Origin: Pachysolen tannophilus NRRL Y-2460 | Taxonomy: Eukaryota | Direction of reading: 5' to 3' | DNA length: 64,000 bases | NCBI GenBank assembly: GCA_001661245.1 | Contig: KV454017.1 | Location: 425,061-489,060 of the forward strand | Shown here: positions 5,352 to 64,000 of the stretch, piece after piece | Numbering within the stretch: position 1 is the first letter of the stretch | Layout of the letters: each line of letters begins with the position of its first letter | Translations under genes and position numbers: made by a program | The notes under the pieces: generated by a model | Told to the model about the DNA's origin: nothing | The model's input: only the letters and a program-made list of their open reading frames with translations | The model's database searches: none

Positions 5352-6562
5352 TTCAAATAAAAATAAAAATAAAAATAAAATTAAAAAATAAAAAAATAAA
5401 TATTGATTGATTGATTATTACTTTATTATTATGACTTGGTCACTAACCTCCCTTCTGGTTCTTTCTCATTTCTCTATATATACAATGACTTCAAGCAACA
5501 GAAAAAATATAAAATCTTTTGTTTGCTATATTATTCCCGCTAAAACTGTTAACAGTTAGTTAACAGTCCAAAAAACCAAAAAAAAAAAAAAAAAAAGNTG
5601 AATACTAAATTAAANNNNNNNNNNNNNNNNNNNNNNNNNNNNNNNNNNNNNNNNNNNNNNNNNNNNNNNNNNNNNNNNNNNNNNNNNNNNNNNNNNNNNN
5701 NNNNNNNNNNNNNNNNNNNNNNNNNNNNNNNNNNNNNNNNNNNNNNNNNNNNNNNNNNNNNNNNNNNNNNNNNNNNNNNNNNNNNNNNNNNNNNNNNNNN
5801 NNNNNNNNNNNNNNNNNNNNNNNNNNNNNNNNNNNNNNNNNNNNNNNNNNNNNNNNNNNNNNNNNNNNNNNNNNNNNNNNNNNNNNNNNNNNNNNNNNNN
5901 NNNNNNNNNNNNNNNNNNNNNNNNNNNNNNNNNNNNNNNNNNNNNNNNNNNNNNNNNNNNNNNNNNNNNNNNNNNNNNNNNNNNNNNNNNNNNNNNNNNN
6001 NNNNNNNNNNNNNNNNNNNNNNNNNNNNNNNNNNNNNNNNNNNNNNNNNNNNNNNNNNNNNNNNNNNNNNNNNNNNNNNNNNNNNNNNNNNNNNNNNNNN
6101 NNNNNNNNNNNNNNNNNNNNNNNNNNNNNNNNNNNNNNNNNNNNNNNNNNNNNNNNNNNNNNNNNNNNNNNNNNNNNNNNNNNNNNNNNNNNNNNNNNNN
6201 NNNNNNNNNNNNNNNNNNNNNNNNNNNNNNNNNNNNNNNNNNNNNNNNNNNNNNNNNNNNNNNNNNNNNNNNNNNNNNNNNNNNNNNNNNNNNNNNNNNN
6301 NNNNNNNNNNNNNNNNNNNNNNNNNNNNNNNNNNNNNNNNNNNNNNNNNNNNNNNNNNNNNNNNNNNNNNNNNNNNNNNNNNNNNNNNNNNNNNNNNNNN
6401 NNNNNNNNNNNNNNNNNNNNNNNNNNNNNNNNNNNNNNNNNNNNNNNNNNNNNNNNNNNNNNNNNNNNNNNNNNNNNNNNNNNNNNNNNNNNNNNNNNNN
6501 NNNNNNNNNNNNNNNAAAAAAAAANAAAAAAAAAAAAAAATTTTTTAAGAAAATTAAAAAAT

Positions 6563-6635: not shown

Positions 6636-6818
6636 TTAATACTTGTCGTTCGACGGGCCGATAAGTTAATTGAGTCCGTACACTATAGAGACTTCACTAT
6701 AGATAGTACACTATAGTAATTGTAATGTAATATATATATATATATATGGAGGGGAGACATATATGTTATTATTATTATTATTATTTTATTTTTATAACTT
6801 TGAATAGTTTAGTGAAGC

Positions 6819-7684
6819 ATGGAGGACACAAATGATGATGGGAGGTATTCTGAGGAAGTGAAGTTGAGGGAAGAAACTTATCAAAGGAAATTACAGGAGA
6901 ATATTGAATTGAAGCAAGCTTTTTATGATAATGGTGTAAGGAATTATAATGATTTTAAATCATCAAAAGAATTGGAAGAGTCAGATGATGATGAAATTAT
7001 AAATTTAAAGAGAGAAACTATAGCTTTATATGATTCATTGAAGAAATTGCTGTTTAGACCAGAAAGAGACGATTTGATTGGGATATCTTTAGCTGATTAT
7101 AAATTGGATAAACAAGTGAAAGGATTAAAAAAGGAAACTGATGGGATTAAAAATTATAACGCGTCGTTGTTGAATAGAATAAATTGTACTTCTGCTCTTA
7201 TTAAAAATTTTGAATCAATTGGAGAATCTTTAGATTTAAGAATAACAAAAGAAGAGTTAAAAACAACACAAGTTAATGATATTTCGGTAAAATTTAAAAT
7301 TAAAGATTTAGAAAAAAAAATTTCAATTCAAAAACAAAGAGAATTACAATTGATGAAATATTCAAAACAAGTAATATATAAATATTTAATTGAATTAAAT
7401 TTTTCTGATTTAAATGATGACACAATAAAGAATAAAACTATTTTGAAAAAAAAAATTTTACTTTAATTGAAACTTTATTAAACAAAATGACTATCAATAT
7501 TATGAATAAAGATAATAAAATTATTTTAGATAGTGGGAATTCTTTAGATGGATATATAAAAGTTGAAGATAAAAATGATCCTTTATTAAGGCAACTATTG
7601 AAAGGTGATTTGATCATAGAAAAAGGAAATTTAGAATATATAAAACTACGGAGTTTTGGATTAGAATTTAATAGTTTAGAATAA
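6819..7684 (+). CDS. Probable kinetochore protein of CENP-K/Mcm22 type; split by a 1-nt frameshift in the A10 run at 7446-7455
   Basis: Coiled-coil ORF 6819-7466 joins ORF 7487-7684 if one A is added (LKKKNFTLIETLLNKM); C-terminal YIKV...LLRQLL...IKLRSFG resembles CENP-K-like ends. Confidence 0.5.
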
Positions 7685-17560: not shown

Positions 17561-18253
17561 TTATTGGCTTCTATTTAATTCTGCTAGGAGATCAAAGGTG
17601 CTATGACAGCTAACACTATTTTTCTTATTCCCATTATTACCATTACTCTTTCTTGTTGATTGTTTCGTTGTATCAATCCACCCTGAATTGTCGTTTATTG
17701 TCCACCCATGATAATGTTTTACATTTGATTTGGAATTTTTGGATAGGGCTTCGATATTTTGAAATCTTTCTTTTAAGAAACTGGATATTTCCTCAGCATT
17801 AAAACTACTATTTGGTTTATTACTGTTATTATTAGCAGGAAGTTTCTGATTTCCCGTAGCAGGACTCCTTTGTCTATTTTCGTCTCTTGAATGTTGTTGT
17901 TGTTGTTGTTGCATTTTGAGGACTGCCTGCGATTTTGCTGTTGCCGCAGCTAAAGGTGGACTAGTAGCAGATGATGAATTGGAAACAGTAGCTTTTGCCG
18001 CAACCTCAGCCCAGCCGCCACTTTTACCAGATGGTTTGGGTGGTGTTGTGTGAGCCGATGACGAAGAGGAGGCCGAAGAAAAAGCTGTATTTGTTGCCGC
18101 CGATGAGTTTGAAGTGGCTACTGGCTTATTATTATTATTATTATTATTATTATTGCTATTGCTATTGGTATTGGCGGTTGATGATTTCCTGGAATGTCCC
18201 AATGGGAAACCACTATTATTACTATTACTCTTTTTATTTGTCACTGAAGGCAT
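17561..18253 (-). CDS. Hypothetical low-complexity (N/S/Q-rich) protein
   Basis: 230-aa ATG ORF with a short ordered segment FNAEEISSFLKERF; no family recognised. Confidence 0.7.
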   Translation of the reverse strand: MPSVTNKKSNSNNSGFPLGHSRKSSTANTNSNSNNNNNNNNNKPVATSNSSAATNTAFSSASSSSSAHTTPPKPSGKSGGWAEVAAKATVSNSSSATSPPLAAATAKSQAVLKMQQQQQQHSRDENRQRSPATGNQKLPANNNSNKPNSSFNAEEISSFLKERFQNIEALSKNSKSNVKHYHGWTINDNSGWIDTTKQSTRKSNGNNGNKKNSVSCHSTFDLLAELNRSQ

Positions 18254-18871
18254 GATTTAGTTGGTATAAATATTGGATTCGAAAACAATGAATAAAATGA
18301 AAACTTTTCAGTTGGATAATTTTTTAACTTTCTCTTTTTTTTTTCTTTTTCTTTTTTTCTTATATTTGCAAGATAATTAAAATAAATTGCTTATAAAATT
18401 ATCAATCTAATTTATTTTTTTAATTCTTTTTGAAAAGAAAGACTTGGAATTTCCCCAACTCTCACTTGATTACAATGATTGAAATATTTCAATCAATATT
18501 GATCAATATTAACCAAAATTAAAAAGAAACTAAAAAGGTGATGAAACGCTTTTTTGATGGAGATTCAAAGTTTTCCATATTAACAATTGAGGAAATGCAC
18601 ACTACCAGAACAAAACGCATAAACTGCTTAACGAGATGCATATTTCATAGATCTGGTCTGTTGGAATGCGTTTGATTTTGTATTCTGTTGATGGTGTAGT
18701 TGTTGAAAGATGGAAATGTATTTAACTGAAGAGTTGTTGAGATTTATATTTGTAATAATAACTTTTTTTTCTTTGCTTTTTTCTTTTTATGTGTGTGTGT
18801 TTTCTTTTGTGTGCGTTGCTATTATGATTATGCAGTTGGGTTTTACAAGCAAAAGAAGAAAGAGACATTGC

Positions 18872-26259: not shown

Positions 26260-27439
26260 AAAGTGATGTCAAAACAAACTGGTATTACTTTATACCTGTT
26301 ATTACTTTACTAATTTTCTTTCTTTTTTCTTTTTACTTTAGTTCTTTTTTTTTATTATGTTGGATTATAATAAGTTCTTTATTTTGTATCGTTTTAGATT
26401 ACAAAACAATTATTCTTATCAAAGCAATAAATTCAAATAAATCACTCTTCTATACCTAACAATAATATCCTATCAGATCTTTAGCTGACTTATCAATCCA
26501 TTTTAATTAATTTGAACTAATATAAAGAAGAATAACTTTTCAAAAATTAAGCGCCTTCTAAAAAAAAATAAAAAATTTAAAAAAAAAAAAATTTTTTTTT
26601 TTTTTTTTCATACAAAAAATTATCAAAATCATCATTTAGAAAATAACAATAAATTGGATGATAAAATGTTCATTATGTTTTAAGTAGTAGAAAAGAAAAG
26701 ATTTTGTATTATCAATAAGAGAAAAATAAGAAATAACTAACTAACTAAACTAACTAACTGACTAACTAACGAACTAACTTCAAATTCAAATTCAAACAGA
26801 AAAATCGAATTCATATAAAAAAGAAATATAGAAAAACAATATAAAGCATGATCGGAAAATAAAAATGTAGAAAAAAAAAAAAAAAATAATAGTAATAATA
26901 AAAANNNNNNNNNNNNNNNNNNNNNNNNNNNNNNNNNNNNNNNNNNNNNNNNNNNNNNNNNNNNNNNNNNNNNNNNNNNNNNNNNNNNNNNNNNNNNNNN
27001 NNNNNNNNNNNNNNNNNNNNNNNNNNNNNNNNNNNNNNNNNNNNNNNNNNNNNNNNNNNNNNNNNNNNNNNNNNNNNNNNNNNNNNNNNNNNNNNNNNNN
27101 NNNNNNNNNNNNNNNNNNNNNNNNNNNNNNNNNNNNNNNNNNNNNNNNNNNNNNNNNNNNNNNNNNNNNNNNNNNNNNNNNNNNNNNNNNNNNNNNNNNN
27201 NNNNNNNNNNNNNNNNNNNNNNNNNNNNNNNNNNNNNNNNNNNNNNNNNNNNNNNNNNNNNNNNNNNNNNNNNNNNNNNNNNNNNNNNNNNNNNNNNNNN
27301 NNNNNNNNNNNNNNNNNNNNNNNNNNNNNNNNNNNNNNNNNNNNNNNNNAAAAGATTAAAAAAAAAAATAATAAAAGAAAAAGAAAAAGAAAAGGGAAAA
27401 AAAAAAAGAAATTGGATCACGCTGCTATTTGAGAATGGT

Positions 27440-28597
27440 CTATTTACGGCCCCAGTTAGCCTTTAATGGTCTACCATTGACTAAGAAACCTTGCAAGTTA
27501 ACAATACACATTGCAGCGTGTTCATGATTATCATATTTGATAAAGGCACATCCTTTTTCAGCTTGATATTTAACATCCAAGATGTATCCAAATTGTTGAG
27601 CAATTGCAATAATATCATTTTGATTGGCAAAATGTGGGATATTACCTAAATAAACTGTAGTAATAAACGAAGGAGTTTGTCTTAAAATCATATCAAAATT
27701 TTGAGGAGTTAACATACCCATTGGATTTGGATTATTATTGGTTTGAACATTAACAGGGTTTAAATTTCTATTATTATTTTGCATGTTACCATGATAATTG
27801 TTACGATGCAGGTTTAAAGATTGTTGTTGCTTTCTTGAAGCCCAATTCAATCTAATAGCTCTGCCAGCAATCCATTCACCATTCATGGATTGCAATGCAG
27901 CTTCAGCATCCAGATGTTGTAAAAATGAAACAAAACCATAACCTCTTGATCTACCAGTTTGCATATCCCACATAACATGGGCTTGAATTAAAGAACCAAA
28001 TCTTTGGAAAGTACTTCCTAATAATTCATCATTAACTTCTGGAGATAAATCACCAACAAATAAATTAAAAGTATCATTACTTCTTAATTGTTGAGATTGA
28101 TAAGCCCAATTGATCTTTATTGGAGAATTATTAATAATTCTACCATTTAAAGATTGTAAAGAAATTTCTGCAGCTTGATTATTTTCGTATTCAATAAAAG
28201 CATAATTTAAACCTGGTTGATTTTTATCAAATAAAACTTTAATCGATAAAACTGGACCTCCAACTGAAAAAAGTTCTCTTAACATATCTTCACTTACAGA
28301 TTTATCTAATCCACCAACGTATAAGATCTTGTCCGATAATTCACGACCACCTTCAACCGCATTTGCCGGATTGACATCTGGTTGTTGAGGGTCATTACCC
28401 TGTTGCATTTCATCTATCTGCTGTTGGTCAACAATTTGTTGTTGTTGTTGTTGTGGCTGCTGTTGCTGTTGCTGTTGCAGTTGTTGTTGTTGTTGTTGGT
28501 CAGACTCCACAGGTATCTGTTGTTGTTGTGGAGGTGTTGGCTGCTGCTGCTGCAGTTGTTGTTGTTGTTGTTGTTGTGAATGTTCTTGAGTACTCAT
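27440..28597 (-). CDS. PUB1: Three-RRM poly(U)-binding protein
   Basis: EGGRELSDKILYVGGL, FNLFVGDL and AHVMWDMQTGRSRGYGFVSF motifs; Q-rich N-terminus. Confidence 0.93.
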   Translation of the reverse strand: MSTQEHSQQQQQQQLQQQQPTPPQQQQIPVESDQQQQQQLQQQQQQQPQQQQQQIVDQQQIDEMQQGNDPQQPDVNPANAVEGGRELSDKILYVGGLDKSVSEDMLRELFSVGGPVLSIKVLFDKNQPGLNYAFIEYENNQAAEISLQSLNGRIINNSPIKINWAYQSQQLRSNDTFNLFVGDLSPEVNDELLGSTFQRFGSLIQAHVMWDMQTGRSRGYGFVSFLQHLDAEAALQSMNGEWIAGRAIRLNWASRKQQQSLNLHRNNYHGNMQNNNRNLNPVNVQTNNNPNPMGMLTPQNFDMILRQTPSFITTVYLGNIPHFANQNDIIAIAQQFGYILDVKYQAEKGCAFIKYDNHEHAAMCIVNLQGFLVNGRPLKANWGRK

Positions 28598-29744
28598 GAT
28601 CTAATATATATACTTATCTTAATGATTGACAATTCTTTCTTGTGGGACGCAAAATGTACAAGTTTGTAAAAAAAAAGAAAAAATAAAACACGATTATTAC
28701 TATTAAAGACTAGTAAAACACAAATAATGATAAAACAACCCAATTTCTAATAAAACAAGATGAAATAAAAAAAACTGTATTATGTATAACTCAACAAGAA
28801 CTATGAAAACAAAACTTCAAGTAGGATTTTTTTTTTTTTTTTAAGAAGTANNNNNNNNNNNNNNNNNNNNNNNNNNNNNNNNNNNNNNNNNNNNNNNNNN
28901 NNNNNNNNNNNNNNNNNNNNNNNNNNNNNNNNNNNNNNNNNNNNNNNNNNNNNNNNNNNNNNNNNNNNNNNNNNNNNNNNNNNNNNNNNNNNNNNNNNNN
29001 NNNNNNNNNNNNNNNNNNNNNNNNNNNNNNNNNNNNNNNNNNNNNNNNNNNNNNNNNNNNNNNNNNNNNNNNNNNNNNNNNNNNNNNNNNNNNNNNNNNN
29101 NNNNNNNNNNNNNNNNNNNNNNNNNNNNNNNNNNNNNNNNNNNNNNNNNNNNNNNNNNNNNNNNNNNNNNNNNNNNNNNNNNNNNNNNNNNNNNNNNNNN
29201 NNNNNNNNNNNNNNNNNNNNNNNNNNNNNNNNNNNNNNNNNNNNNNNNNNNNNNNNNNNNAAAAAAAAAAAAAGGTTTTAATTAAATTCTTTTAATCTTT
29301 TTCTTTTTTAGGAGTTATCTTCAATTGAGAAATTGGGTATCTATTTTTTTTAAAATTTTAAAAAATGATTTCCCTCCTTTTTTTTTCTTATTGATTGTAT
29401 ATATTCTTTTATTTTAATTAATTCTTTTAAATGTTTAAATGAAATGGTGAAATCCGTTCAATTTTTTTTTCTTTTCGTTCATCAAAGTAAAAAAAAAAAA
29501 AAAAAAATTTTTTTTTTTCGAAAAAAAAAAACGAAAAAAATAACATCTCAGCCACACTTACCTATACTTTTAACAAGAAATTTCCTAATGCGGAAAGTAA
29601 TACGGACATTGTGGCGTGTGGATCTGAATCACGGGCAAAAAAAAATAAAAGAAAAAAAAATAATTTTGGACTTCAATTACACACGCCACGGTATTCCTAA
29701 TCAGGAAATGTATTAGTATGTGTGTGATGACTTTTTGTGTTTCT

Positions 29745-30462
29745 TTACATCTCACCACACTGAGTTATAACAACGTCAATTAAAGGTTTGTCTTCTGAAT
29801 TTGTCTTGACGTGTTCGATCTTCTTGACGATATCTTGTCCTTCTATTACTTTCCCGAAAACAACGTGTTTGTTATCTAGATGGGGGCAATTTTCGAGGCA
29901 TATGAAAAATTGGGATCCATTAGTATTAGGACCTGAATTGGCCATAGATACCATCATTGGTTCATCTAGAGATTGCGCGGGAATTTAGTTAGTAATTTGG
30001 ATCTTGTATATGGATTCTAGTCTAGATTCTAGCGCCAATGATAGCGCCAATGATAGCGCTGATACTTACGTTTGAAATAAAATCCTTCATCATCAAATTG
30101 ACTTTTCCCATAGATTGATAAAGATCCGGTACCATTATTTTTCAAGAAATCACCTCCTTGGATCATAAAGTTCTTGATGACTCTATGGAATTTTGAACCT
30201 TTATAGCCAATAGGATTGAATTTTTCTCTATATTCTCCAGTACAAAATTGCCGAAAGTTTTCACATGTAATTGGTAACTTGTCTTTAAACAATTCAATCT
30301 TTATTCTACCCAATAATTGCGCTTTAAGGTAAATAATATATTATTTAGTATACATAAACATAAATCATATAATTTAATATAAACAGCGCTTAAATTCTTT
30401 TTATACTTACGTCCTAGACTAATATCGAAAAAAACAATTGGATTCTTCTCTTGACTACTCAT
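29745..30462 (-). CDS. Cyclophilin H (PPIH-type) PPIase; exons 30462-30411, 30321-30070, 29965-29745
   Basis: Splices to [29 protein letters not shown]...[10 protein letters not shown]...[23 protein letters not shown]...QCGEM; two GTAAGT donors, AAG and TAG acceptors, both phase 1. Confidence 0.88.
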
Positions 30463-30684
30463 ACTTCTTTCTTTATTGATAGCTCACTTCAGTTTATCGT
30501 TGTCTTTTATCTTTATTAATTTTTTTGTATTTTTCTTTGTTTTTCTTTGTTTTTTTTTATTTTTTTGATCTTTTTTAACATTTTTTAATAATAAAAATTG
30601 TCTCATAATTATATACAATAATAATCTATTAAGATTCAAGTTGATTTATGGGTGTGAGATTTTTTTTATAATTGAAAAGCACTG

Positions 30685-30779
30685 ATGCCACAACCACTAA
30701 AGAGGGTTCATACCTCAATTCCAGATACAGATACTGCAATTGATAGAAGTATTCCTGAGTTTCCTGCTGCTTTACTTTC
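30685..30779 (+). CDS. CAB2: 5' fragment of phosphopantothenate-cysteine ligase (first ~32 codons), separated from its body by an inversion
   Basis: MPQPLKRVHTSIPDTDTAIDRSIPEFPAALLS resembles the Cab2 N-terminus (HTSVTEISHAIDRT...FPVA); below the ORF-track size cutoff. Confidence 0.85.
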
Positions 30780-30860
30780 TTCGTCCTACCTATTATATGT
30801 AACAGGTATGATTCCACTAGAAAGGGCCTACAGTATGGTATTGGCCTCTCATTTATGTAG
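30780..30860 (+). CDS. SAM50: Displaced 3' fragment of Sam50 (last 26 aa, beta-signal strand)
   Basis: Reads FVLPIICNRYDSTRKGLQYGIGLSFM-TAG, matching the Sam50 end FTLPI...D..RKGFQFGLGLAFL. Confidence 0.9.
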   Translation, partial: FVLPIICNRYDSTRKGLQYGIGLSFM

Positions 30861-31091
30861 TTGAAGACTGTTTGAGTTGACGTTTGTTTGTTTGTTGTTT
30901 TTTTTAAAAAAAATTGCTTTCTAAATACATGTAAATAATGCTGTATCAATCAATATATAGAGAACTTAATATTATTATTAGTTAGTTTTTTTATTTTATT
31001 TTATTTTTTTTTTTGGTTTTAGTTTAGGTGTTTCTCCACATTTTATAGATGAACGTAACCTTAAATTTCAAAAAGCTAGATTAATCATAAA

Positions 31092-32017
31092 CTATTTTCT
31101 ACTCTTTATCCATTCCTCATGCAATTTAATAACTTCTGGGATAATGATACCTTCAATATCGACTTCATTTTCCAATTGTTCATCACTTAACTTGTACCAT
31201 TTGACAAGATTATCGGTGACAAATACAACTTCAGTTTTCCTTGTTTGTAATAAGTTACCAATGACTAATTGATGATTATACCTTTGTAAAGCACCTTTCA
31301 GTTTACTTATTAAGATATTTGAATCTGTTTCTAATTTGAAAGAAACAATCATTGAAGTTGGTGCCCATGAATCTTTTAATCTTCTCAAGAATTTTGGAAC
31401 AGGTTCTAAATTAATTTCTAATTTCCCACCATGATCATGACTTTGAATTTTATGTTCTGGAATTTTAGAAGAAGGAAGAAAAAAATCTGAAACAGCAGCT
31501 GCCAAATAAAACAAAGCATTTGATCCTAATATACTCAATTCCTCTGAAATTAATCTTAAAGTATATAAATATTGATTTACCGTTGTAAATGGAACTAATA
31601 ATAATAAATTATTTTTTTAGCATATTGATATTTTCTTAATACAACTAACATTTGTTCTTGATATTTTGGATCAATTCCTACTTGATGATTTTCTTCTTTC
31701 ATATAATCTAAAAAACAATTTGTTGTATGACTATAATGTCTTGAATATGGTAATAATGAAAATTCTCTATGTAAAAAATTACCGCATATCCATTTTCTAA
31801 AAAATATTCAGCTGATGTAGCACCTCTTGTACCAGCACTAAAATTATCAATAAATCTTACAGTATTATTTTCCAATGGTACCGTAGTACCTCCTGAAGTC
31901 ACCAATGCAATTTTCCTATTTTGTAATTGATGTAATCCAATAAATTTTTGACATTGTTGAGCTATTTGTGATAAATAATTTGGAGGTTCATGTTGTTGAA
32001 AATAATCTTCTTCATCT
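31092..32017 (-). CDS. CAB2: Body of phosphopantothenate-cysteine ligase (inverted relative to its start; 1-nt frameshift at 31773-31778)
   Basis: DEEDYF...LVTSGGTTVPLENNTVRFIDNFSAGTRGA, YLAAAVSDF and VSFKLETD motifs; T6 must be T7 to read IFLHREF. Confidence 0.93.
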
Positions 32018-33527
32018 ATTCAATTCGAATCTTGCAACTGGATGTTTATAGACAATACCAAAACCAGTGGCCACACTTGGATCTTTTAAAATATTTTCAT
32101 AAAAATTATCATGATCGCTTAAATCTTTAATATTGAGTAATTTACCAAAATTGACAAAACTATGGATTTTAAAATTGCTATCAATTGAAGTTTTAGGTAC
32201 ATGGTTAAAGAGACTTAAATTACCTCCATAAAAAAAATTTCCACCAATTGGGGAGCCACTAAGTTTTGGACCCAATCCATTTAACAGGAAACCTCGTAAA
32301 TCGTTAGGTCCACCAAGATAAAATCTATCCATTATGTTTAATGTGTTATTTGTAGAGGATAAGTTATGAATATACCCACCTCTCAAGGAGAAATTGAAGA
32401 AATTTAAATTATTTGAAGTCAATTTTTGGGCTAATTGAAATTCAAATTGATTTTTAATAAATTTCAGATTTTTCTCACTATTAGATGATAATGGAATTAA
32501 CCCAGCAAGTTCAGTTGAATTTTTAAATAAAACACCGGAACTAGGCAATAATGGATTATCTCTGCTATCGAATTTCAAAGAATAAATGAAACTTGATTTA
32601 AAACTTTCACCACACTGACTCAATATGTCATCATTAACTGTGAATTGGTTTGTATATGTAGTTGTTGGTCTTGTTAGTTTAATTGTTCTTAGTATATTTT
32701 CCACTGAAAATTCATGATTGAAAAATTCATATTGTGATGATATTCTATTTGTGAAACCAGTAATATGCTGTTCATGTGGTACACACCAATCTATTAGTCT
32801 ATTTGTAGAATACAGAATATTATCTAATCTCCAATTTGGATTATTATTAAAGGGTAAATTGAAATTTAATAAATAAGTTGATCTTGTCTTGGCACCAATT
32901 GAACTCGAAGAAACATTGGTATCAAACGTCAAATTTTCACCAGCTCCAAATATATTTCGATAATTGACAGTTAAGTATGCATCACCTTCTCCATTCCCAA
33001 CATTAGTACCAATTTTCAGTGTAAAATTTTTAACAGGTATTAATTGTAAAGTGGTGAGTAAATCAATTCCATTAGCAGGAGTACTTCTAGACTTAAAATA
33101 AGCAGAATCAATTTTAAAATTTAAGTTACTTATAGTTTGAGTCTTAAGAAAATTCAATTTTACAGCATCAATATTTTCAAGTAAATTTTCTAAAGTTAAC
33201 TTATCATTAACTAATAACGGATATAATTGTCTTTTAAGGAAAGATTCTCTGAAATTCTGAGCTCCAACCACATTTAAAGATTGTATTCTCATAGGCTTTG
33301 ATGCATTTTGCTCTAATATTGAATTCAAATAATTCCTCGTATGAGACTGTACTATTTCCAATTTTTGTTCTTGCAATAACTCCAACTCGGATTTTCTCTC
33401 CTGAGAAGGTCTTATTTCTGATATTCTTTCAATCACCTATTTCAACGAAAAAACTGTTAGAAAACAAAACTCATATACTTTAATGAATAAAACAAATACA
33501 TACACTATCATTCTCATTGAGAGACAT
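32018..33527 (-). CDS. SAM50: Mitochondrial SAM complex core Sam50 (Omp85), lacking its last 26 aa here; exon 1 33527-33504, intron 33503-33437
   Basis: DRFYLGGPNDLRGF..NGLGP and HPVARFELN motifs; GTATGT donor, TTCTAAC branch, TAG acceptor. Confidence 0.93.
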
Positions 33528-34010
33528 GTCCACACTAAGACTTTTATAAAGGAAAAAAACGGTTTAAAGAAATACTAAATGGTCACAAATTTGTAAATTA
33601 GTTGAAAAGCTGAAAAAACACACTAAAAATGTTACAAATTTTCAAGGGCTGCACTTTGACTGAATAATAATAATAATAATAACAAATGAAGATATATATA
33701 TTAGAAGTTTGAAAATAAAAACAAGAACAGCAATAACTGTCAATAATTAGTCCTATCAGTCATATCAATGACCGAAGAAACAAAACATAAAAAGTTGAAT
33801 AAATAAAAAAAAAAAAGAATAAGAAAAAGAAAAATGGGGAAAAAAGAAAGAAAGAAAAAAAAAAAGTATTAGTTTCATTGGAAATGAATAAGTTACTTAA
33901 AAGTACAATCATAAATATATATATATATATAAAAGAAAAAGAAAAAGAAAAAAAAAATAAAAATTCACAAAACTGTCACACTGTCACACTGTAATTCATA
34001 ATTGAGTTCG

Positions 34011-35942
34011 TTAACCTTTATTAGAATGAGAATTTAGACTTGAACTAAGATCTTCCAAAATCCTTAAACTTTCGACGCTACTTCTCTTGATTTCACTTGA
34101 ATCTTTAAAAGAAGATGTCTTTCTGAAAGCATCTGTTTGACTTGTATTTGTGCTGTTAATATAAATATTTTCCTGAGTAACAGCAGCAATCAGTGCTTTC
34201 AAAGACGATCCGGTTGAACTAGCATCCTGATTATCTTCTTCTTCCTTAAAGTCATTTATACGATCTCGATGAGAACCATTAAAACGCCAAAAATTTTTAT
34301 CATTATTAAGATTAGTATTATCGTGCATTTCAATATCATGATTGAAGAAGCTTGATTCTAAGCAACTTTTTGGTATTGTTGTCTTGATAATCGCGTTTTT
34401 AGAAGGACTATAAAAAATCCCACTGTTGGCTCCAAAGTTGTATTTAGGTCCTAAAACTATTGACCCTGACGATATTGGAGATAGCATTTTTGGAAGAGCA
34501 GGTTTTTTTAAAGAAGACGATAAGGACCTTGCCTTATACGACGACTTTTTAATTGGGGTTGATTCCAATATATTCTCTGATGAAGATGATATTATTGATG
34601 AAGGACTAGAAGAGGAATCATCAGAGATGGATTGGACCGCTTTTGCGATAATCCTTTTATTTTCTGCTTCTGAATCTAAACCTGAGGAATCAACTTCAGG
34701 TTCGGTATCAGTTGTTTCTTCTAGTCCTTGGTAATATTTTTTTTCATCATTTAATTCATCTTCAATTTCTTCACTGATTTCAATATCATCATGGTCATCA
34801 ATAATTTGAACTTGGACTGTAGAACCTACATGGGGGCCTTCATTATATAAGTTCCCATTGATTCTTATAACTTTCTTCTGTTGTTGTTTGTTGCCGCTGC
34901 TGTTGCTGCTGCCGTTGCTGTACGATTTTTGTTTTGTTGTTGTTGTTGTTGTTGTTGTTTTCTTTTTGGAGTTTTTGTTACTGTCGGGGGCGAAGGCAGG
35001 CCTCGCCCTTTCTATATCCACTTCAGTTGTGGAATCTCCTAAAAAACTTTTATCCTCATGAGAAGTCAGTTTCTTAGATTGACCACCCAAGAAATTTGAA
35101 GATGATGAAGACAGAGTATCATCCAAAGATTTTTGAGGAATTTTTTTAAAATTAGATTCTTTTTCGAACCTTTTATCCATACTTTCACTAACATCATAAG
35201 CATCTTCAACGAAAACGTTTAAAATTTTTAAAATTGGTTTTTCAAAAAACTTAAAGATTAAAAATCCAATTAATAAATTCAACGCATGACCAAATACATT
35301 TTCAAAAATTTTATAATGCTCAGCGTAAAAAGGTTTCCAATAATCATCAACATAAGAAGCTAAATATGTCGCATAATAATAATTGACATTTATCAAAGTC
35401 AGTTCAAAAAAAATTTGATATTTCTCCTTAATAACCAATAAATTCGGAAGTATATAATCCTCATATTTTGGTCTAATTGAACCATAAGCAAAAATTAAAC
35501 TAGGATGAACAAAAATTTCATATTTTGTCTTGATATAATCATAACTAGAAACAATCAGTGGTTCAACAATTTCAAAATATTTGGAATTAACATACCGATA
35601 AGCAACAATTGCATGTGGTTTAATATAAATATCATAATAAGGCTTAACAAATTCCATCACTTTAGTGGTATACTTGACAAAATACTTATTTGTCTTGATA
35701 TACTTCTCATAAAATTGAACAAGCGACGAATTCGCATACACATATTTCAAAGCATCTTCAGTATATTCCTCATAACTAACTTTACTCTCAACTGGCAGGG
35801 AACCTAATAACCCATGGACATAATTATACCCAATATCTTTAAACTCGTTATACCTCTTCTCGTCCACCTGGTGTAATATAACAATTGAAATCAATGGTAC
35901 TATAACCGTCGAATACAAGATCAATAGAAGTGACGATATCAT
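34011..35942 (-). CDS. Hypothetical membrane-associated protein
   Basis: 643-aa ORF with hydrophobic N-terminus, Tyr-rich amphipathic region, a second hydrophobic segment and S/D/E-rich tail; no family recognised. Confidence 0.7.
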   Translation of the reverse strand: MISSLLLILYSTVIVPLISIVILHQVDEKRYNEFKDIGYNYVHGLLGSLPVESKVSYEEYTEDALKYVYANSSLVQFYEKYIKTNKYFVKYTTKVMEFVKPYYDIYIKPHAIVAYRYVNSKYFEIVEPLIVSSYDYIKTKYEIFVHPSLIFAYGSIRPKYEDYILPNLLVIKEKYQIFFELTLINVNYYYATYLASYVDDYWKPFYAEHYKIFENVFGHALNLLIGFLIFKFFEKPILKILNVFVEDAYDVSESMDKRFEKESNFKKIPQKSLDDTLSSSSSNFLGGQSKKLTSHEDKSFLGDSTTEVDIERARPAFAPDSNKNSKKKTTTTTTTTKQKSYSNGSSNSSGNKQQQKKVIRINGNLYNEGPHVGSTVQVQIIDDHDDIEISEEIEDELNDEKKYYQGLEETTDTEPEVDSSGLDSEAENKRIIAKAVQSISDDSSSSPSSIISSSSENILESTPIKKSSYKARSLSSSLKKPALPKMLSPISSGSIVLGPKYNFGANSGIFYSPSKNAIIKTTIPKSCLESSFFNHDIEMHDNTNLNNDKNFWRFNGSHRDRINDFKEEEDNQDASSTGSSLKALIAAVTQENIYINSTNTSQTDAFRKTSSFKDSSEIKRSSVESLRILEDLSSSLNSHSNKG

Positions 35943-36249
35943 GTTTGATCAATACAGTCCTTATCCTTACTCTCTCTAAACGTTATTCTTCATTTATCGT
36001 TTAATTATTTATTTTATCTATCATTTATATAATATGTAAATAAACCAAATTCCCTTCTCTTGTACTTGCTCTTAAAAAAATAAGAAAAAAATTAAAAAAA
36101 TTAAAAAGAAAAAAATTTTTTTGAATTTTATTATTGAAAAACCATCACCAAAAAGAGAGAAACGATATCTTTATTACCGGTATTGGAGGAGGATTCATTA
36201 GCCTTTAGTTAGGGATAAAGATAGAGAGATTGCGATCGAGATAGACGAG

Positions 36250-53346: not shown

Positions 53347-55699
53347 TTTTTTTTTCTAATTTTCTGGCTTTGAAAAAGGTTGAAGGATTTCAAATAAATT
53401 AAATAAAAGATGATAAATTTAATAAATAAAGTGCTAACATGAAAAAGGGATAAAAAAAATCTAACGGCGGCTAAAGCAAAAAAAAAAATCCTGCACGCAT
53501 AAAAAAAAAAAAATTTTTTAATTTTTACTTTGGGGATACAAGCCAAAAGAGTCTATATAGAAACCAAGTCAAAGAGAAAAAAAAAGACAACAACAAATGA
53601 TAAACAATAAACTTGACATACTAGTTCCATCTTTGTTGGCATACAATTGTGCAAGAAAAAAAAAAAAAGAAAATTTCATTATTTTTTTTTCTTTATCTTT
53701 GTTTTTATCTTGTATTCTACAGTAACAACAACACATAAATACCATTTCTATCATACATATCAATTTTTCTAATGGTGCGCACTGTACCCACCGCTGAAAC
53801 AGCGCAAGATAAATCTTTTTTATTTATTTTTTTTTTTGATGCTTTGAAATCGTTTATGAAAAGTCCGTCTTCCATCGCCGGCTTAGAGTGCATACATCGA
53901 AGCAGCGAAGGTTGCAAACCAAAGAAAAAAGCGACAAAGCGACAAAGCAAAAAAGCAAAAAAGGGGGTCTCAAAATGTGTTGTACTGCACTACTCTTATA
54001 ATACTAACTCTAATTAATCTATCGTTCTCATTCTGGGTAATATATAAAGACAGAAAGAAAAAAATTTTTTCTTTGTTTTACTTTTTGCCTATTAAATTAC
54101 TTAGTATACACTAAAATGGACAATTTCTTACTCATTTCTGCCCAACTGTTTGAGCGTTATGAGTTGTGAATTATTATTTGTAATTTGCGCGTTGCGCGCT
54201 GAGCGTTTCCGCTACAAATAAACGTATTCGGTGGTGCTTGTTCGACTAAGGTTTATCTAATTAGTAAAAACACATGTTCGTGCATACAACGTACAGATTT
54301 AGAGATCCAAAGTAAGTGCGCTTTTCGACTAAAAAAAAAGGGACTCCCAAACATTTATTTCTACAAACTAATTTGTGTAAGATATCTAAAAGCTTAAGCT
54401 TTAGATATCTTTTTTTTTTTTTTTTTTAGCTTTTTGTTTTGAGGCCATAGATAACTACTAGTTTTTTTTACTACTTATTATTTCTTCTCACTCTTCTTTT
54501 ATGAATATGAATTTGGCTGTACTCTAATAGAAATCTAAACTTTTTTTCTCTCTTGTTACATCTACTACTTAAGATCGCGCGCGTAAATTTTGAAAAGGAA
54601 AATTTTTAAATTTCCCAATTCGTCGATTGTCTCTCTTTTTTTTTTTTTTTTTTCCTGTTACAAAAAAGAAGTACAACAACAAATAATAATGTAATTTTGA
54701 ATCTATATCTATTAATTGATTTGAATTGTTACATAACAGCGGTTAATCAAATTTTTGGAATAAAAGAAATTTAATTAATCGGTAATCATAAAGATCCATT
54801 CACTCTTTTAGACACTCACTTAAATCTTTTCGTTAAAAGCTTTTTTAATTATTAATTTTTTATTTTTTAATTTTTTATTTTTTTTTNTTTTTTTTNNNNN
54901 NNNNNNNNNNNNNNNNNNNNNNNNNNNNNNNNNNNNNNNNNNNNNNNNNNNNNNNNNNNNNNNNNNNNNNNNNNNNNNNNNNNNNNNNNNNNNNNNNNNN
55001 NNNNNNNNNNNNNNNNNNNNNNNNNNNNNNNNNNNNNNNNNNNNNNNNNNNNNNNNNNNNNNNNNNNNNNNNNNNNNNNNNNNNNNNNNNNNNNNNNNNN
55101 NNNNNNNNNNNNNNNNNNNNNNNNNNNNNNNNNNNNNNNNNNNNNNNNNNNNNNNNNNNNNNNNNNNNNNNNNNNNNNNNNNNNNNNNNNNNNNNNNNNN
55201 NNNNNNNNNNNNNNNNNNNNNNNNNNNNNNNNNNNNNNNNNNNNNNNNNNNNNNNNNNNNNNNNNNNNNNNNNNNNNNNNNNNNNNNNNNNNNNNNNNNN
55301 NNNNNNNNNNNNNNNNNNNNNNNNNNNNNNNNNNNNNNNNNNNNNNNNNNNNNNNNNNNNNNNNNNNNNNNNNNNNNNNNNNNNNNNNNNNNNNNNNNNN
55401 NNNNNNNNNNNNNNNNNNNNNNNNNNTTTTTTTTTTTTTTTTATCCTTTTTCTATTTTTATCCCGTATCAAGAGAAATTAATCGTTACTGTTCTTTAAAT
55501 TAATCATTAAAAAAAAAAAGAAAATAGCGTTGGAATAAATACCAAGAAATTTTGTGAATAATTGTTTCATTCCGCTGACAAGCATAAAGTTTTTTTAACA
55601 GTTGAAAACAGAAATTGTTATATTATTAGTTTTCTTGTCTTGTCTTGTCTTGTCTTATTTTGTTTTGTTTTGTTTTGTCTTCAATATATCATTTGAGAG

Positions 55700-60828: not shown

Positions 60829-61718
60829 GATGTAAATATTTCACTACAAAATTATTTCTATCTAACTTTATTCTACCACAGCCAATGCTGAACAGTTTTT
60901 CAACTATACAAACCAATCAAACTCATCAATACTTTCTCGTCAAAATTAACAAGAAATAAAAAAAACAAAGTCGTGCATTAAAGTCTACATCAGGGTAATT
61001 TTGTCCGCACAATTAGTACTGCTATTTGAAGTATTCAAGGCAAGGTAATAGACATAGACACACAAGATTAATCATGATTCAACTATTCCAAAGAATTGAA
61101 AGCTGAAATCTGAATTTTTCATCTACTAGATATCTTAATCACAGAATTTTTCATTGTAAACTTCAAAAGCAAAATTTTAATACTTCTTGCAGTAGCAGTA
61201 CAACGCAGTTGAAGAAACGCTTTGCTCATTACTTATTAAGGAAAAAACAGCTGTTTTGAGCCGTTCGTTCTCTTTTAAATTTGAACGCACAAGTTGCGGC
61301 GAAATTTCTCTCATAGAAAAAATCTTTAAAAAAAAAAGAAAAAAAGAATTTCCCAAAAATAGTCAAATTTATAATACAAAATTGTAATCTAGTGTTTTTT
61401 TTCATTTTTATACGAAACTTATTGATAGAAGTGATTTTGAGAAATTTTATCTCTATTTAATCATTGATTGATATAGACTTCTGTTTTACAGAATTTTATT
61501 TTAATTTTGTTATATAAGTTTCTTCAAAAAAAAATTTTTTTTTTCTTTTTGGTTTATTTATTTTTTTACTGATTTTATAAGCTGGATTTTCTTATAAAAA
61601 AAGTTTTTAAAAGGTTTATTTTTTGTTAATATTTGTATTTTAGAGAATAAAACAAAATAAAAAAAAAAGAAGGTTATCGAGGAATCTTTAGAGACAAGAT
61701 TAAGTTTGATCAGAATCA

Positions 61719-63023
61719 ATGTCAGAAATTAAAACTGGGTCATTACTCGAAGATAAGGATAAGCGCCCTTCGATATCGAATCTTGTGGGACCCACTATTC
61801 GAAGCGGCGATGAACAAGATCTTAAAGTTGCTCCAACTACTGCAAAGGAGATTCAAACTACTCCTGTTATGACCACGACCACTAATAGTACGCCATTGAA
61901 TAGTGCCAATAGTAGTAGTAATAATAGTAGTGGAGGTGGTGGTGGTGGTGCTATAAGTGCAAATCAAAAGCCGCTTGGTTCAAGTTCAAGTTCATCTACT
62001 CAACATCATACATTTCAGCCGCACCAGCAACAACCACTTCCAGCTGTTCAGCCGCCACAATATTTCAACCCATCAGCAAATTATAGTCCGGAATATTATC
62101 AGTATTATCAACAATATCCAGTTCCTCAATATTTTCAAGGAATGATGACACAAGCTTCAGCAAATTCACCATATGGGAGATACTATTACCAACCATATCC
62201 TTCAAGATATAATTATCCTCCAAATTATTCTCCACATCCGCCTTCAGCTTCATCGAATCAAGTACTTCCTTCATCTAATGAACTTTCAGAAGGGGCAGAA
62301 CTGACATCATCAAGAAATACAAGTACAAATTTAAATAATAATAAATTGAGTAAAATTACTAAATCAAGTACAACTTCTGGTGTAACGGATATTGAAAATG
62401 TCAGCGGCAAAAATAATTATAAAGTTAAAAAACCTAAAAAACAACCTAAGGTGAAATTACCACCAAAACAAGAGATAGTGGATAATTCTGGAACTAATAT
62501 TCAAAGACCATATCCATGTACTCATGAAGGATGCCTTTGGGCTTTTGCAAGACAAAGTGATTTGAAAAGACATATAAAATCACACATGCCTCCACTGTTT
62601 CATTGCCCCTTTTGGAAAAGTGATCCAACGTGTCATAGAAATGGTGGCGCATTCAATAGGTTGGATGTTTTGAAAAGACATCTTAAATTGGTACATTTTG
62701 TTCAAGATAAAGATGATTTTTCTACAAGCAGTAGAATTGAAAAAGGTTGGTGTAGATCTTGCCAAAGACAATTTTCTTCCGTTAGAGAGTTTGTCGATCA
62801 TTGCGAGACATGTGCTGCAAATTTGCATCCAACAGAATGGAAACAACATTACAGTAACGGCAACAGCAACGGAAACGGTAATAGTCTAACTTCTATAGGG
62901 TCAGATATATCAGCAAGAAGAAAACCGAGAATCTCTAAAGCAAAATTGAAATCCAACCAGCAAGAAAGTCCAGAGAGTATCGACGACGTAGAAGCAGAAT
63001 CTGTTGGAGAACAGGTGAGTTAA
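61719..63023 (+). CDS. C2H2 zinc-finger transcription factor
   Basis: YPCTHEGCLWAFARQSDLKRHIKSH and FHCPFW...CH...FNRLDVLKRHLKLVH fingers; Q/Y/P-rich N-terminus. Confidence 0.88.
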   Translation: MSEIKTGSLLEDKDKRPSISNLVGPTIRSGDEQDLKVAPTTAKEIQTTPVMTTTTNSTPLNSANSSSNNSSGGGGGGAISANQKPLGSSSSSSTQHHTFQPHQQQPLPAVQPPQYFNPSANYSPEYYQYYQQYPVPQYFQGMMTQASANSPYGRYYYQPYPSRYNYPPNYSPHPPSASSNQVLPSSNELSEGAELTSSRNTSTNLNNNKLSKITKSSTTSGVTDIENVSGKNNYKVKKPKKQPKVKLPPKQEIVDNSGTNIQRPYPCTHEGCLWAFARQSDLKRHIKSHMPPLFHCPFWKSDPTCHRNGGAFNRLDVLKRHLKLVHFVQDKDDFSTSSRIEKGWCRSCQRQFSSVREFVDHCETCAANLHPTEWKQHYSNGNSNGNGNSLTSIGSDISARRKPRISKAKLKSNQQESPESIDDVEAESVGEQVS

Positions 63024-64000
63024 CCAACAACAAAAACTTATTGACTACGATTTTTAAAGGTGTTATATGGATAGATCCTGATGTTTTTGGCGTTATTGTT
63101 TTATTTTATTTGATTTTTTTTTTTTTTTTTNNNNNNNNNNNNNNNNNNNNNNNNNNNNNNNNNNNNNNNNNNNNNNNNNNNNNNNNNNNNNNNNNNNNNN
63201 NNNNNNNNNNNNNNNNNNNNNNNNNNNNNNNNNNNNNNNNNNNNNNNNNNNNNNNNNNNNNNNNNNNNNNNNNNNNNNNNNNNNNNNNNNNNNNNNNNNN
63301 NNNNNNNNNNNNNNNNNNNNNNNNNNNNNNNNNNNNNNNNNNNNNNNNNNNNNNNNNNNNNNNNNNNNNNNNNNNNNNNNNNNNNNNNNNNNNNNNNNNN
63401 NNNNNNNNNNNNNNNNNNNNNNNNNNNNNNNNNNNNNNNNNNNNNNNNNNNNNNNNNNNNNNNNNNNNNNNNNNNNNNNNNNNNNNNNNNNNNNNNNNNN
63501 NNNNNNNNNNNNNNNNNNNNNNNNNNNNNNNNNNNNNNNNNNNNNNNNNNNNNNNNNNNNNNNNNNNNNNNNNNNNNNNNNNNNNNNNNNNNNNNNNNNN
63601 NNNNNNNNNNNNNNNNNNNNNNNNNNNNNNNNNNNNNNNNNNNNNNNNNNNNNNNNNNNNNNNNNNNNNNNNNNNNNNNNNNNNNNNNNNNNNNNNNNNN
63701 NNNNNNNNNNNNNNNNNNNNNNNNNNNNNNNNNNNNNNNNNNNNNNNNNNNNNNNNNNNNNNNNNNNNNNNNNNNNNNNNNNNNNNNNNNNNNNNNNNNN
63801 NNNNNNNNNNNNNNNNNNNNNNNNNNNNNNNNNNNNNNNNNNNNNNNNNNNNNNNNNNNNNNNNNNNNNNNNNNNNNNNNNNNNNNNNNNNNNNNNNNNN
63901 NNNNNNNNNNNNNNNNNNNNNNNNNNNNNNNNNNNNNNNNNNNNNNGTACTCAAGTAACTGTAACTCATTCAAATATACGTTCATCTATCCATTCATTCA

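What the first reader, a model, noticed from the sequence alone, without database searches (positions are those of the whole stretch)
30780..32017. Precise 1,238-bp inversion cuts CAB2 and SAM50 and swaps their 3' ends
Seen: Sam50 (-) stops at ...ARFELN-R-stop, and its missing end FVLPIICNRYDSTRKGLQYGIGLSFM-stop lies on the + strand at 30780-30860. The Cab2 body (-) has no start, while a Cab2-like N-terminus begins at ATG 30685 on the + strand. Reverse-complementing 30780-32017 gives ...FPAALLS-DEEDYFQQ... and ...RFELN-FVLP..., both in frame with no base gained or lost (breakpoints +/-1 nt). No inverted repeat, gap or long homopolymer lies at the junctions. Known: both genes are essential in S. 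cerevisiae, and Sam50 needs its last beta-strand. Inference: the locus as written is unlikely to be viable, so it is a misoriented or altered segment, a heterozygous or transient state, or a switchable inversion.
Basis: partly seen in the sequence, partly recalled or inferred. Interest (0 to 1): 0.9.

Follow-up and report, generated by a model that had tools for sequence, protein, structure and literature searches.

The report
Misoriented segment in yeast reference assembly
A 1,238-base piece of the public Pachysolen tannophilus genome assembly sits backwards and carries two dropped bases, which falsely breaks two essential genes (CAB2 and SAM50); it is almost certainly an assembly error, not biology.

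Summary
Window 30780-32017 is inverted relative to the gene logic. Turning it round joins the Cab2 N-terminus to its body and gives Sam50 back its last 26 residues, with no base gained or lost.

The inversion is in the public record. The annotated Pachysolen tannophilus NRRL Y-2460 Sam50 (PACTADRAFT_71659, 482 aa) ends ...ARFELNR, like the window.

An independent DNA run (X3) shows the other order. One contig of 1,260 nt at depth 113 joins 30779 directly to 32017 on the opposite strand, with 0 mismatches. It also has one extra T behind 31611 and one extra A behind 31772. With them, the reverted gene gives a 340-aa Cab2 colinear with 7 homologues.

No inverted repeat lies at the junctions.

Best reading, about 0.9: a misoriented, locally low-quality segment in the reference assembly.

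Biological interest is low. The practical value is a truncated SAM50 model and, apparently, no CAB2 model in the reference proteome.

The parts
30685..30779 (+). Cab2 (phosphopantothenoylcysteine synthetase) 5' end: the ATG and 31 codons plus 2 nt, cut off from its body
   Evidence: It aligns with the N-termini of 7 of 7 Cab2 homologues (RVHTS.PD..TAIDR..P.FP.A).
30780..32017 (.). The 1,238-bp segment that is inverted in the window and public assembly relative to run X3
   Evidence: an X3 contig joins 30779 to 32017 on opposite strands, with sides of 207 and 986 nt, 0 mismatches and no letters between; reversal restores both reading frames.
30780..30860 (+). Displaced Sam50 3' end: the last 26 codons plus the stop (the last beta-strand region of the Omp85 barrel)
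   Evidence: 18 of 26 identical to residues 469-494 of the 494-aa P0005, E 6e-12; homologues P0002 and P0005 end in the same motif; the Omp85 profile is matched only to position 301 of 325 in the body.
30861..31091 (.). AT-rich spacer between the two stop codons. It is the shared 3' region of the convergent genes in the un-inverted order.
   Evidence: The X3 contig ends at 31032, inside this low-complexity stretch.
31092..32017 (-). Cab2 body and stop codon (31092-31094), in three reading frames because of two 1-nt deletions
   Evidence: ORF pieces of 103, 70 and 174 aa. (PF04127 DFP on the 174-aa piece). (hits to Cab2/PPCS)..
31773..31778 (-). A6 run (T6 in gene sense), the first Cab2 frameshift. 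Run X3 has one more A.
   Evidence: table 4 (A put in behind 31772, depth 113.5 of 113.5). (run length).
31612..31618 (-). T7 run (A7 in gene sense), the second Cab2 frameshift. Run X3 has one more T.
   Evidence: table 4 (T put in behind 31611, depth 113.5 of 113.5). (run length).
32018..33436 (-). Sam50 exon 2 (473 codons), which ends ...ARFELN at the breakpoint. In the window it reads on into R and a stop.
   Evidence: 99% identical to PACTADRAFT_71659; the differences are L/A at CTG codons. (PF01103 Omp85).
33437..33503 (-). Sam50 5' intron (GTATGT...AG, 67 nt)
   Evidence: sequence. P0001 reads MSLNENDS|VIERIS across it.
33504..33527 (-). Sam50 exon 1 (MSLNENDS)

Best explanation
[quoted passage not shown] In the real genome CAB2 (+) and SAM50 (-) are intact, convergent neighbours. 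In the assembly, a 1,238-bp stretch was written in the wrong orientation. It holds most of CAB2, the spacer and the last 81 nt of SAM50. It also carries two single-base under-calls in homopolymer runs. So it is a local assembly or finishing error, a misoriented low-quality piece, and not a biological inversion. Shown: the assembly has the inverted order, an independent run has the un-inverted order with two extra bases, and that form encodes full-length proteins. Inferred: the sequenced strain itself has the un-inverted form. The step of the assembly pipeline that flipped the piece is unknown.
For: (1): a contig from run X3 (a different study from the other four holders, depth 113.5) runs 30573-30779 (+) and then directly 32017->31032 (-). 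It has 0 mismatches over 207+986 nt, and a second contig has 0 over 1,376 nt of Sam50 (32416-33791). Its only differences from the window are the strand switch and two 1-nt insertions (T behind 31611, A behind 31772). (2): reverting the segment and adding those two bases gives a 340-aa Cab2 colinear end to end with 7 of 7 homologues of 335-358 aa. It also gives a Sam50 with the conserved C-terminus. (3): the public annotated protein PACTADRAFT_71659 ends ...ARFELNR, which needs the window's 32017/32018 junction. So the error is in the public record and was not introduced afterwards. (4) Both differences inside the segment are 1-nt homopolymer under-calls, a typical sequencing-error signature (my knowledge). 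X3 shows 2 indels in 986 nt inside the segment and 0 in 1,583 nt outside. None of the other 25 long ORFs submitted to Pfam shows pieces of one family split over adjacent frames. (5): there is no inverted repeat or microhomology that could drive recombination. (6) Both genes are essential in S. cerevisiae (my knowledge). The protein searches found no second P. tannophilus Sam50 and no P. tannophilus Cab2 at all, so the locus as written would leave the organism without either function. (7): all 5 holders, including 4 runs of the sample that may be the window's source, hold the same 0.93 share of the sampled words. 107 of 4,571 31-mers (2.3%) distinguish the window state from the X3 state. This is a weak hint that the source sample lacks the junction words too. 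(8) (passages): the assembly is a scaffold-level draft with contig N50 in the 10^4 bin, and the window holds 5 N gaps.
Against: The source sample's own reads were not seen across either junction. X1 and X2 gave no laid contig, and X4 gave only 86 nt elsewhere. X3 carries a different organism label (B against A), so it could be another strain. Only one of the two un-inverted junctions (30779|32017) is bridged. No laid contig covers 30780-31031 or 32018-32415. A base-exact flip without flanking gaps or repeats is not what common assembler failures produce, and I could not read how the assembly was made. The enrichment of indels inside the segment is not significant on the X3 data alone (2 of 2 in 986 of 2,569 covered nt, p about 0.15).
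Confidence: 0.9

Rival explanations
1. The inversion and both frameshifts are real in the sequenced isolate. They would be a null allele carried beside an intact copy (diploid, disomic or sub-clonal state), and the assembler happened to write out the broken haplotype.
For: The inverted order really is in the public assembly. The source sample's reads were not seen over the junctions. X3 has another organism label.
Against: Otherwise X3 is identical over 2,569 nt. An allele old enough to collect an inversion and two indels shows no substitution. Both indels are homopolymer under-calls. No second copy of either gene turned up among annotated proteins. All holders have an equal word share, although 2.3% of words differ between the states.
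Confidence: 0.05
2. The segment is a programmed, switchable inversion (a flip/flop switch) that toggles CAB2 and SAM50.
For: P. tannophilus does have one inducible inversion, at MAT (PMC6692504, passages). Two orientations of the present segment exist in public data.
Against: The MAT switch is an 8-kb region flanked by 2-kb inverted repeats. Here there is no inverted repeat above chance. One orientation destroys two essential genes and creates no alternative product. The frameshifts would make the switch irreversible in function.
Confidence: 0.01
3. The window was altered after the public record (an in-silico change peculiar to this copy of the sequence).
For: The flip is base-exact, and run X3 differs from the window only at this segment.
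Against: The NCBI protein of this strain ends ...ARFELNR, which needs the 32017/32018 junction. No P. tannophilus Cab2 model appears among the listed hits, as expected if the public sequence is broken too.
Confidence: 0.02

Closest known systems
Inversion-type misassembly (strand switch inside a contig) in draft genome assemblies
   Same: A stretch is written on the wrong strand inside an otherwise colinear contig. Independent reads show the other order. Gene models are truncated or lost as a result. The piece also carries local base errors.
   Different: Such errors usually sit at repeats, gaps or contig joins. Here the flip is base-exact, has no repeat or N at either end, and lies about 1.5 kb from the nearest gap. 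That this is a recognised class of assembly error is recalled, not taken from a paper read here (searches gave nothing).
Flip/flop mating-type inversion of P. tannophilus (FF1 system)
   Same: Same species, and a DNA segment that exists in two orientations.
   Different: The MAT region is 8 kb with 2-kb inverted repeats and is inducible by nitrogen depletion (PMC6692504, passages). The present segment is 1.2 kb, has no inverted repeats, and one orientation is simply broken.
Two-break, end-joining inversion (natural structural variant)
   Same: Two breakpoints, no homology, and the segment re-ligated in reverse.
   Different: Natural cases seldom keep every base at both joints (my knowledge). 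They would also be lethal here in a haploid, and they do not explain the two homopolymer deletions.

Membership tests
Assembly misorientation artefact | Independent reads of the same or a near-identical genome show the opposite orientation | tested here: met
   an X3 contig bridges 30779|32017 on opposite strands, at depth 113.5, with 0 mismatches.
Assembly misorientation artefact | Reads of the assembly's own source sample do not support the assembled junctions | tested here: inconclusive
   X1 and X2 gave 0 laid contigs, and X4 gave 1 contig away from the site; an equal 0.93 word share for all 5 holders is only a hint (2.3% of words differ).
Assembly misorientation artefact | The assembled order breaks conserved genes, and reversal restores them exactly | tested here: met
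Assembly misorientation artefact | A known pipeline step accounts for the flip | not testable with these tools
   The paper describing the assembly is not held, and no whole genome is held.
Invertible DNA switch (flip/flop or site-specific) | Inverted repeats or recombinase sites at both ends | tested here: not met
   no pair among the 25 longest of 420 inverted pairs lies at the junctions; score 12 against a null of 11.7 +/- 3.0.
Invertible DNA switch (flip/flop or site-specific) | Each orientation gives a functional, alternative expression state | tested here: not met
   the window's orientation gives a Sam50 that lacks its last 26 aa and a Cab2 without a start on its body.
SAM50 / Omp85 (PF01103) | A complete Omp85 barrel domain including the C-terminal strand | tested here: not met
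   the profile is matched 1-301 of 325 in the window's ORF. The missing 26 aa lie at 30780-30857 on the other strand. The condition is met only after reversal.
CAB2 / phosphopantothenoylcysteine synthetase (PF04127 DFP) | A full-length colinear match to family members in one reading frame | tested here: not met
   The window has 4 pieces on 2 strands and in 3 frames. The form seen in run X3 gives 340 aa colinear with 7 of 7 homologues.

The most novel reading that the evidence does not exclude
The sequenced NRRL Y-2460 culture really carries this inversion, as a broken haplotype beside an intact one. That would be a base-exact, homology-free inversion that knocks out two essential convergent genes at once and is sheltered by a second copy.
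Probability: 0.05. Interest if true: 0.4.

Novelty: not a real feature. Interest (0 to 1): 0.1.

Why it matters
There is nothing new biologically. The practical point is that P. tannophilus is the reference species for the CUG-Ala genetic code and is used in many comparative sets. Its public proteome carries a Sam50 that lacks the last barrel strand (PACTADRAFT_71659, 482 aa). No Cab2 model turned up in the ranges searched (95-2000 aa). Presence/absence screens, completeness scores and structure predictions could then report a false loss of CoA synthesis step 2 and a false truncated SAM50. The locus should be corrected by flipping 1,238 bp and adding one base in each of two homopolymer runs. 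It also shows that this draft can hide small strand switches inside contigs.

Tried and rejected
- **Whole genome:** none is held for this window. I therefore could not search for second copies or other flips genome-wide.
- **RNA evidence:** no RNA holder is listed, so nothing can be said on expression.
- **Read laying:** X1 and X2 gave no laid contig, and X4 gave one 86-nt piece at 29547-29632. The source sample's orientation was therefore not seen. No contig covered 30780-31031 or 32018-32415, so the second un-inverted junction was not seen.
- **Protein searches for an intact or modelled P. tannophilus Cab2:** none appeared among the 120 listed of 1,978 hits at 306-2000 aa (best 82% identity). 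None appeared among 90 hits at 95-305 aa (best 67%).
- **Papers not held:** the paper I recall as describing this assembly, a paper I recall as classifying assembler inversions, and the 2012 draft-genome note of the same strain. The assembly method and the second assembly therefore remain unseen.
- **PMC5632298 (passages):** nothing on inverted segments.
- **Other searches:** (search listing only) was not followed further. A search for 'Pachysolen tannophilus' plus 'SAM50' found 0 papers. Earlier findings of this scan gave nothing for this genome.
- **Synteny in sister species:** not testable, because no collection of yeast contigs is on hand.
- **In-silico planted change:** considered and rejected. 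The public protein carries the junction.

Full report
**What is in the sequence**

The region holds two genes. SAM50 lies on the - strand:
- exon 1 at 33504-33527 (MSLNENDS);
- a 67-nt GTATGT...AG intron at 33437-33503;
- exon 2 from 33436 down to 32018, where it reads ...VARFELN and then runs into R and a stop.

The 26 residues that every homologue has after ELN lie on the + strand at 30780-30857, followed by a stop. They read FVLPIICNRYDSTRKGLQYGIGLSFM. They match residues 469-494 of the 494-aa homologue P0005, with 18 of 26 identical and E 6e-12. P0002 and P0005 end in the same motif. Pfam matches the Omp85 profile only to position 301 of 325 in the window's ORF.

CAB2 starts on the + strand at ATG 30685 and is cut after ...FPAALLS at 30779. 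Its body lies on the - strand from 32017 down to a stop at 31092-31094.

Reverse-complementing exactly 30780-32017 puts both genes in frame with no base gained or lost. In that order they are convergent neighbours sharing a 231-nt AT-rich spacer.

The breakpoints cannot slide. Bases 30779/32018 are C/A and bases 30780/32017 are T/T. Read laying also reports 0 ambiguous letters at the joint.

Reversal alone gives only a 134-aa open Cab2 frame. The body is in three frames (ORF pieces of 103, 70 and 174 aa). The shifts lie at an A6 run (31773-31778) and a T7 run (31612-31618).

**Whose sequence it is**

The best hit of the Sam50 ORF is 'hypothetical protein PACTADRAFT_71659 [Pachysolen tannophilus NRRL Y-2460]'. 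It is 482 aa, 99% identical, and sits on a 1.08-Mb contig.
- It begins MSLNENDSVIERIS, which confirms the intron.
- It differs from my standard-code translation by A for L at CTG codons. This fits the CUG-Ala code of this yeast (PMC4937558, abstract and passages).
- It ends ...ARFELNR.

That ending needs the window's 32017/32018 junction, so the inversion is in the public assembly and was not made afterwards.

The assembly is given as GCA_001661245.1 in PMC13232491 (passages). It is 12.6 Mb, scaffold level, with contig N50 in the 10^4 bin and under 2% N. The window has five N gaps, so it is a draft.

No P. tannophilus Cab2 appeared among the listed hits:
- at 306-2000 aa, the best of the 120 listed out of 1,978 hits was 82% identical;
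- at 95-305 aa, the best of 90 hits was 67% identical.

**What independent reads show**

Five public runs hold 0.93 of the sampled words of 29400-34000. Four come from one sample (S1, study P1), and X3 comes from another study with another organism label.

I laid X1, X4, X3 and X2 on the stretch. X1 and X2 gave no laid contig, and X4 gave one 86-nt piece away from the site. X3 gave three pieces.
- Record 1 is 1,260 nt at depth 113.5. Its letters 35-241 lie on window 30573-30779 (+). Its next letters, 242-1229, lie on 32017->31032 (-). There are 0 other letters and 2 gaps.
- Those gaps are a T put in behind 31611 and an A put in behind 31772, each at depth 113.5 of 113.5.
- Record 2 is 1,543 nt. 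It covers 32416-33791 with 0 differences.

So in X3 the segment is the other way round, and both Cab2 homopolymer runs are one base longer.

In a script I built that form from the window: the segment reverted and the two bases added. It gives a single 340-aa ORF from ATG 30685. That ORF aligns end to end with 7 of 7 Cab2 homologues of 335-358 aa, including the N-terminal RVHTS.PD..TAIDR..P.FP.A block and the regions across both former frameshifts.

**Is there a recombination substrate?**

No. None of the 25 longest of 420 inverted pairs in 30400-32400 has its arms at the junctions. The best local alignment between +/-60 nt around one breakpoint and the reverse complement of the other scores 12. 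The mean for 1,000 control pairs at the same spacing is 11.7 +/- 3.0, and 47% of them reach 12.

The one known switchable inversion of this species, at MAT, is 8 kb long and flanked by 2-kb inverted repeats (PMC6692504, passages). The present segment is nothing like it.

**Local quality**

X3 shows 2 indels in 986 nt inside the segment and 0 differences in 1,583 nt outside it. That is suggestive only, with p about 0.15.

I gave Pfam 27 ORFs, chosen by eye as the gene-like ones among the 63 stop-to-stop ORFs of 90 aa or more listed. Two of the 27 are the Cab2 pieces. Of the other 25:
- none shows one family split over adjacent frames;
- many match their profiles end to end, for example ELFV_dehydrog 1-241/241, NUP159 propeller 1-366/366, TauD 1-267/267 and Aminotran_1_2 2-360/361;
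- five had no family;
- several matched only part of a profile.

This is therefore a soft control. If these roughly 40 kb of ORF are intact, two frameshifts falling in 0.92 kb would be unlikely by chance, roughly 5 in 10,000. That figure is my rough estimate and rests on the assumption.

**Reading**

Single-base under-calls in homopolymers are a sequencing-error signature (my knowledge), and a strand switch inside a contig is an assembly error.

CAB2 and SAM50 are essential in S. cerevisiae, and the Sam50 barrel needs its last strand (my knowledge). The searches found no second copy of either gene. The locus as written would therefore not support life in a haploid.

The simplest account is that this 1,238-bp piece of the reference assembly is misoriented and of lower base quality than its surroundings. 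I put this at about 0.9.

A weak further hint comes from the word shares. 107 of 4,571 31-mers (2.3%) tell the window state from the X3 state. Yet the four S1 runs and X3 all hold 0.93 of the sampled words.

**What remains open**

- The source sample's reads were not seen over either junction.
- Only one un-inverted junction is bridged.
- X3 may be another strain.
- I could not read how the assembly was made, so the step that produced a base-exact flip without gaps or repeats is unknown.
- A real, sheltered broken haplotype in the sequenced culture (about 0.05) is therefore not formally excluded. A programmed switch (about 0.01) and a late in-silico change (about 0.02) are very unlikely.

**Comparison and novelty**

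This is a known kind of thing, an inversion-type misassembly. It is not a biological feature. I found no paper that mentions this locus: 0 papers hold both 'Pachysolen tannophilus' and 'SAM50'.

Its value is as a correction. The SAM50 model of the reference proteome is truncated by 26 residues, and CAB2 appears to be unannotated.

Noticed in passing
window 32018-33436 (-), compared with P0001: The public protein has Ala wherever the standard code gives Leu at CTG codons (for example NFTAKIG against NFTLKIG). This fits the CUG-Ala code (NCBI table 26) of Pachysolen.
   Followed up: partly
window 5615-6515, 26905-27349, 28851-29260, 54896-55426, 63131-63946; single N at 5598, 6525, 54887: There are five N runs (3,106 N in all, 4.9% of the window), with isolated single Ns a few bases from three gap edges. 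They look like scaffold gaps of a draft assembly. The inverted segment lies about 1.5 kb from the nearest one.
   Followed up: partly
window 29745-30465 (-): A cyclophilin gene (PF00160) in three exons. Its second intron begins GTAAGT and holds three tandem copies of a 12-nt unit (about 30030-30065).
   Followed up: no
window 27443-28600 (-): A three-RRM protein with a long poly-Q N-terminus. It sits directly beside the gaps at 26905-27349 and 28851-29260, so its ends may be incomplete.
   Followed up: no
window 34014-35948 (-), 61710-63020 (+), 17564-18256 (-), 6816-7463 (+): Long ORFs (645, 437, 231 and 216 aa) with no Pfam family at E 1e-5. The 645-aa one is Ser/Thr-rich with an N-terminal hydrophobic stretch.
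   Followed up: no
protein searches: No P. tannophilus Cab2 model appears among the listed hits in the 95-2000 aa range, so the reference proteome apparently lacks this essential enzyme. P0057 (335 aa, 82% identical) and P0002 (Sam50, 55%) come from unnamed assemblies of what may be a close relative.
   Followed up: partly
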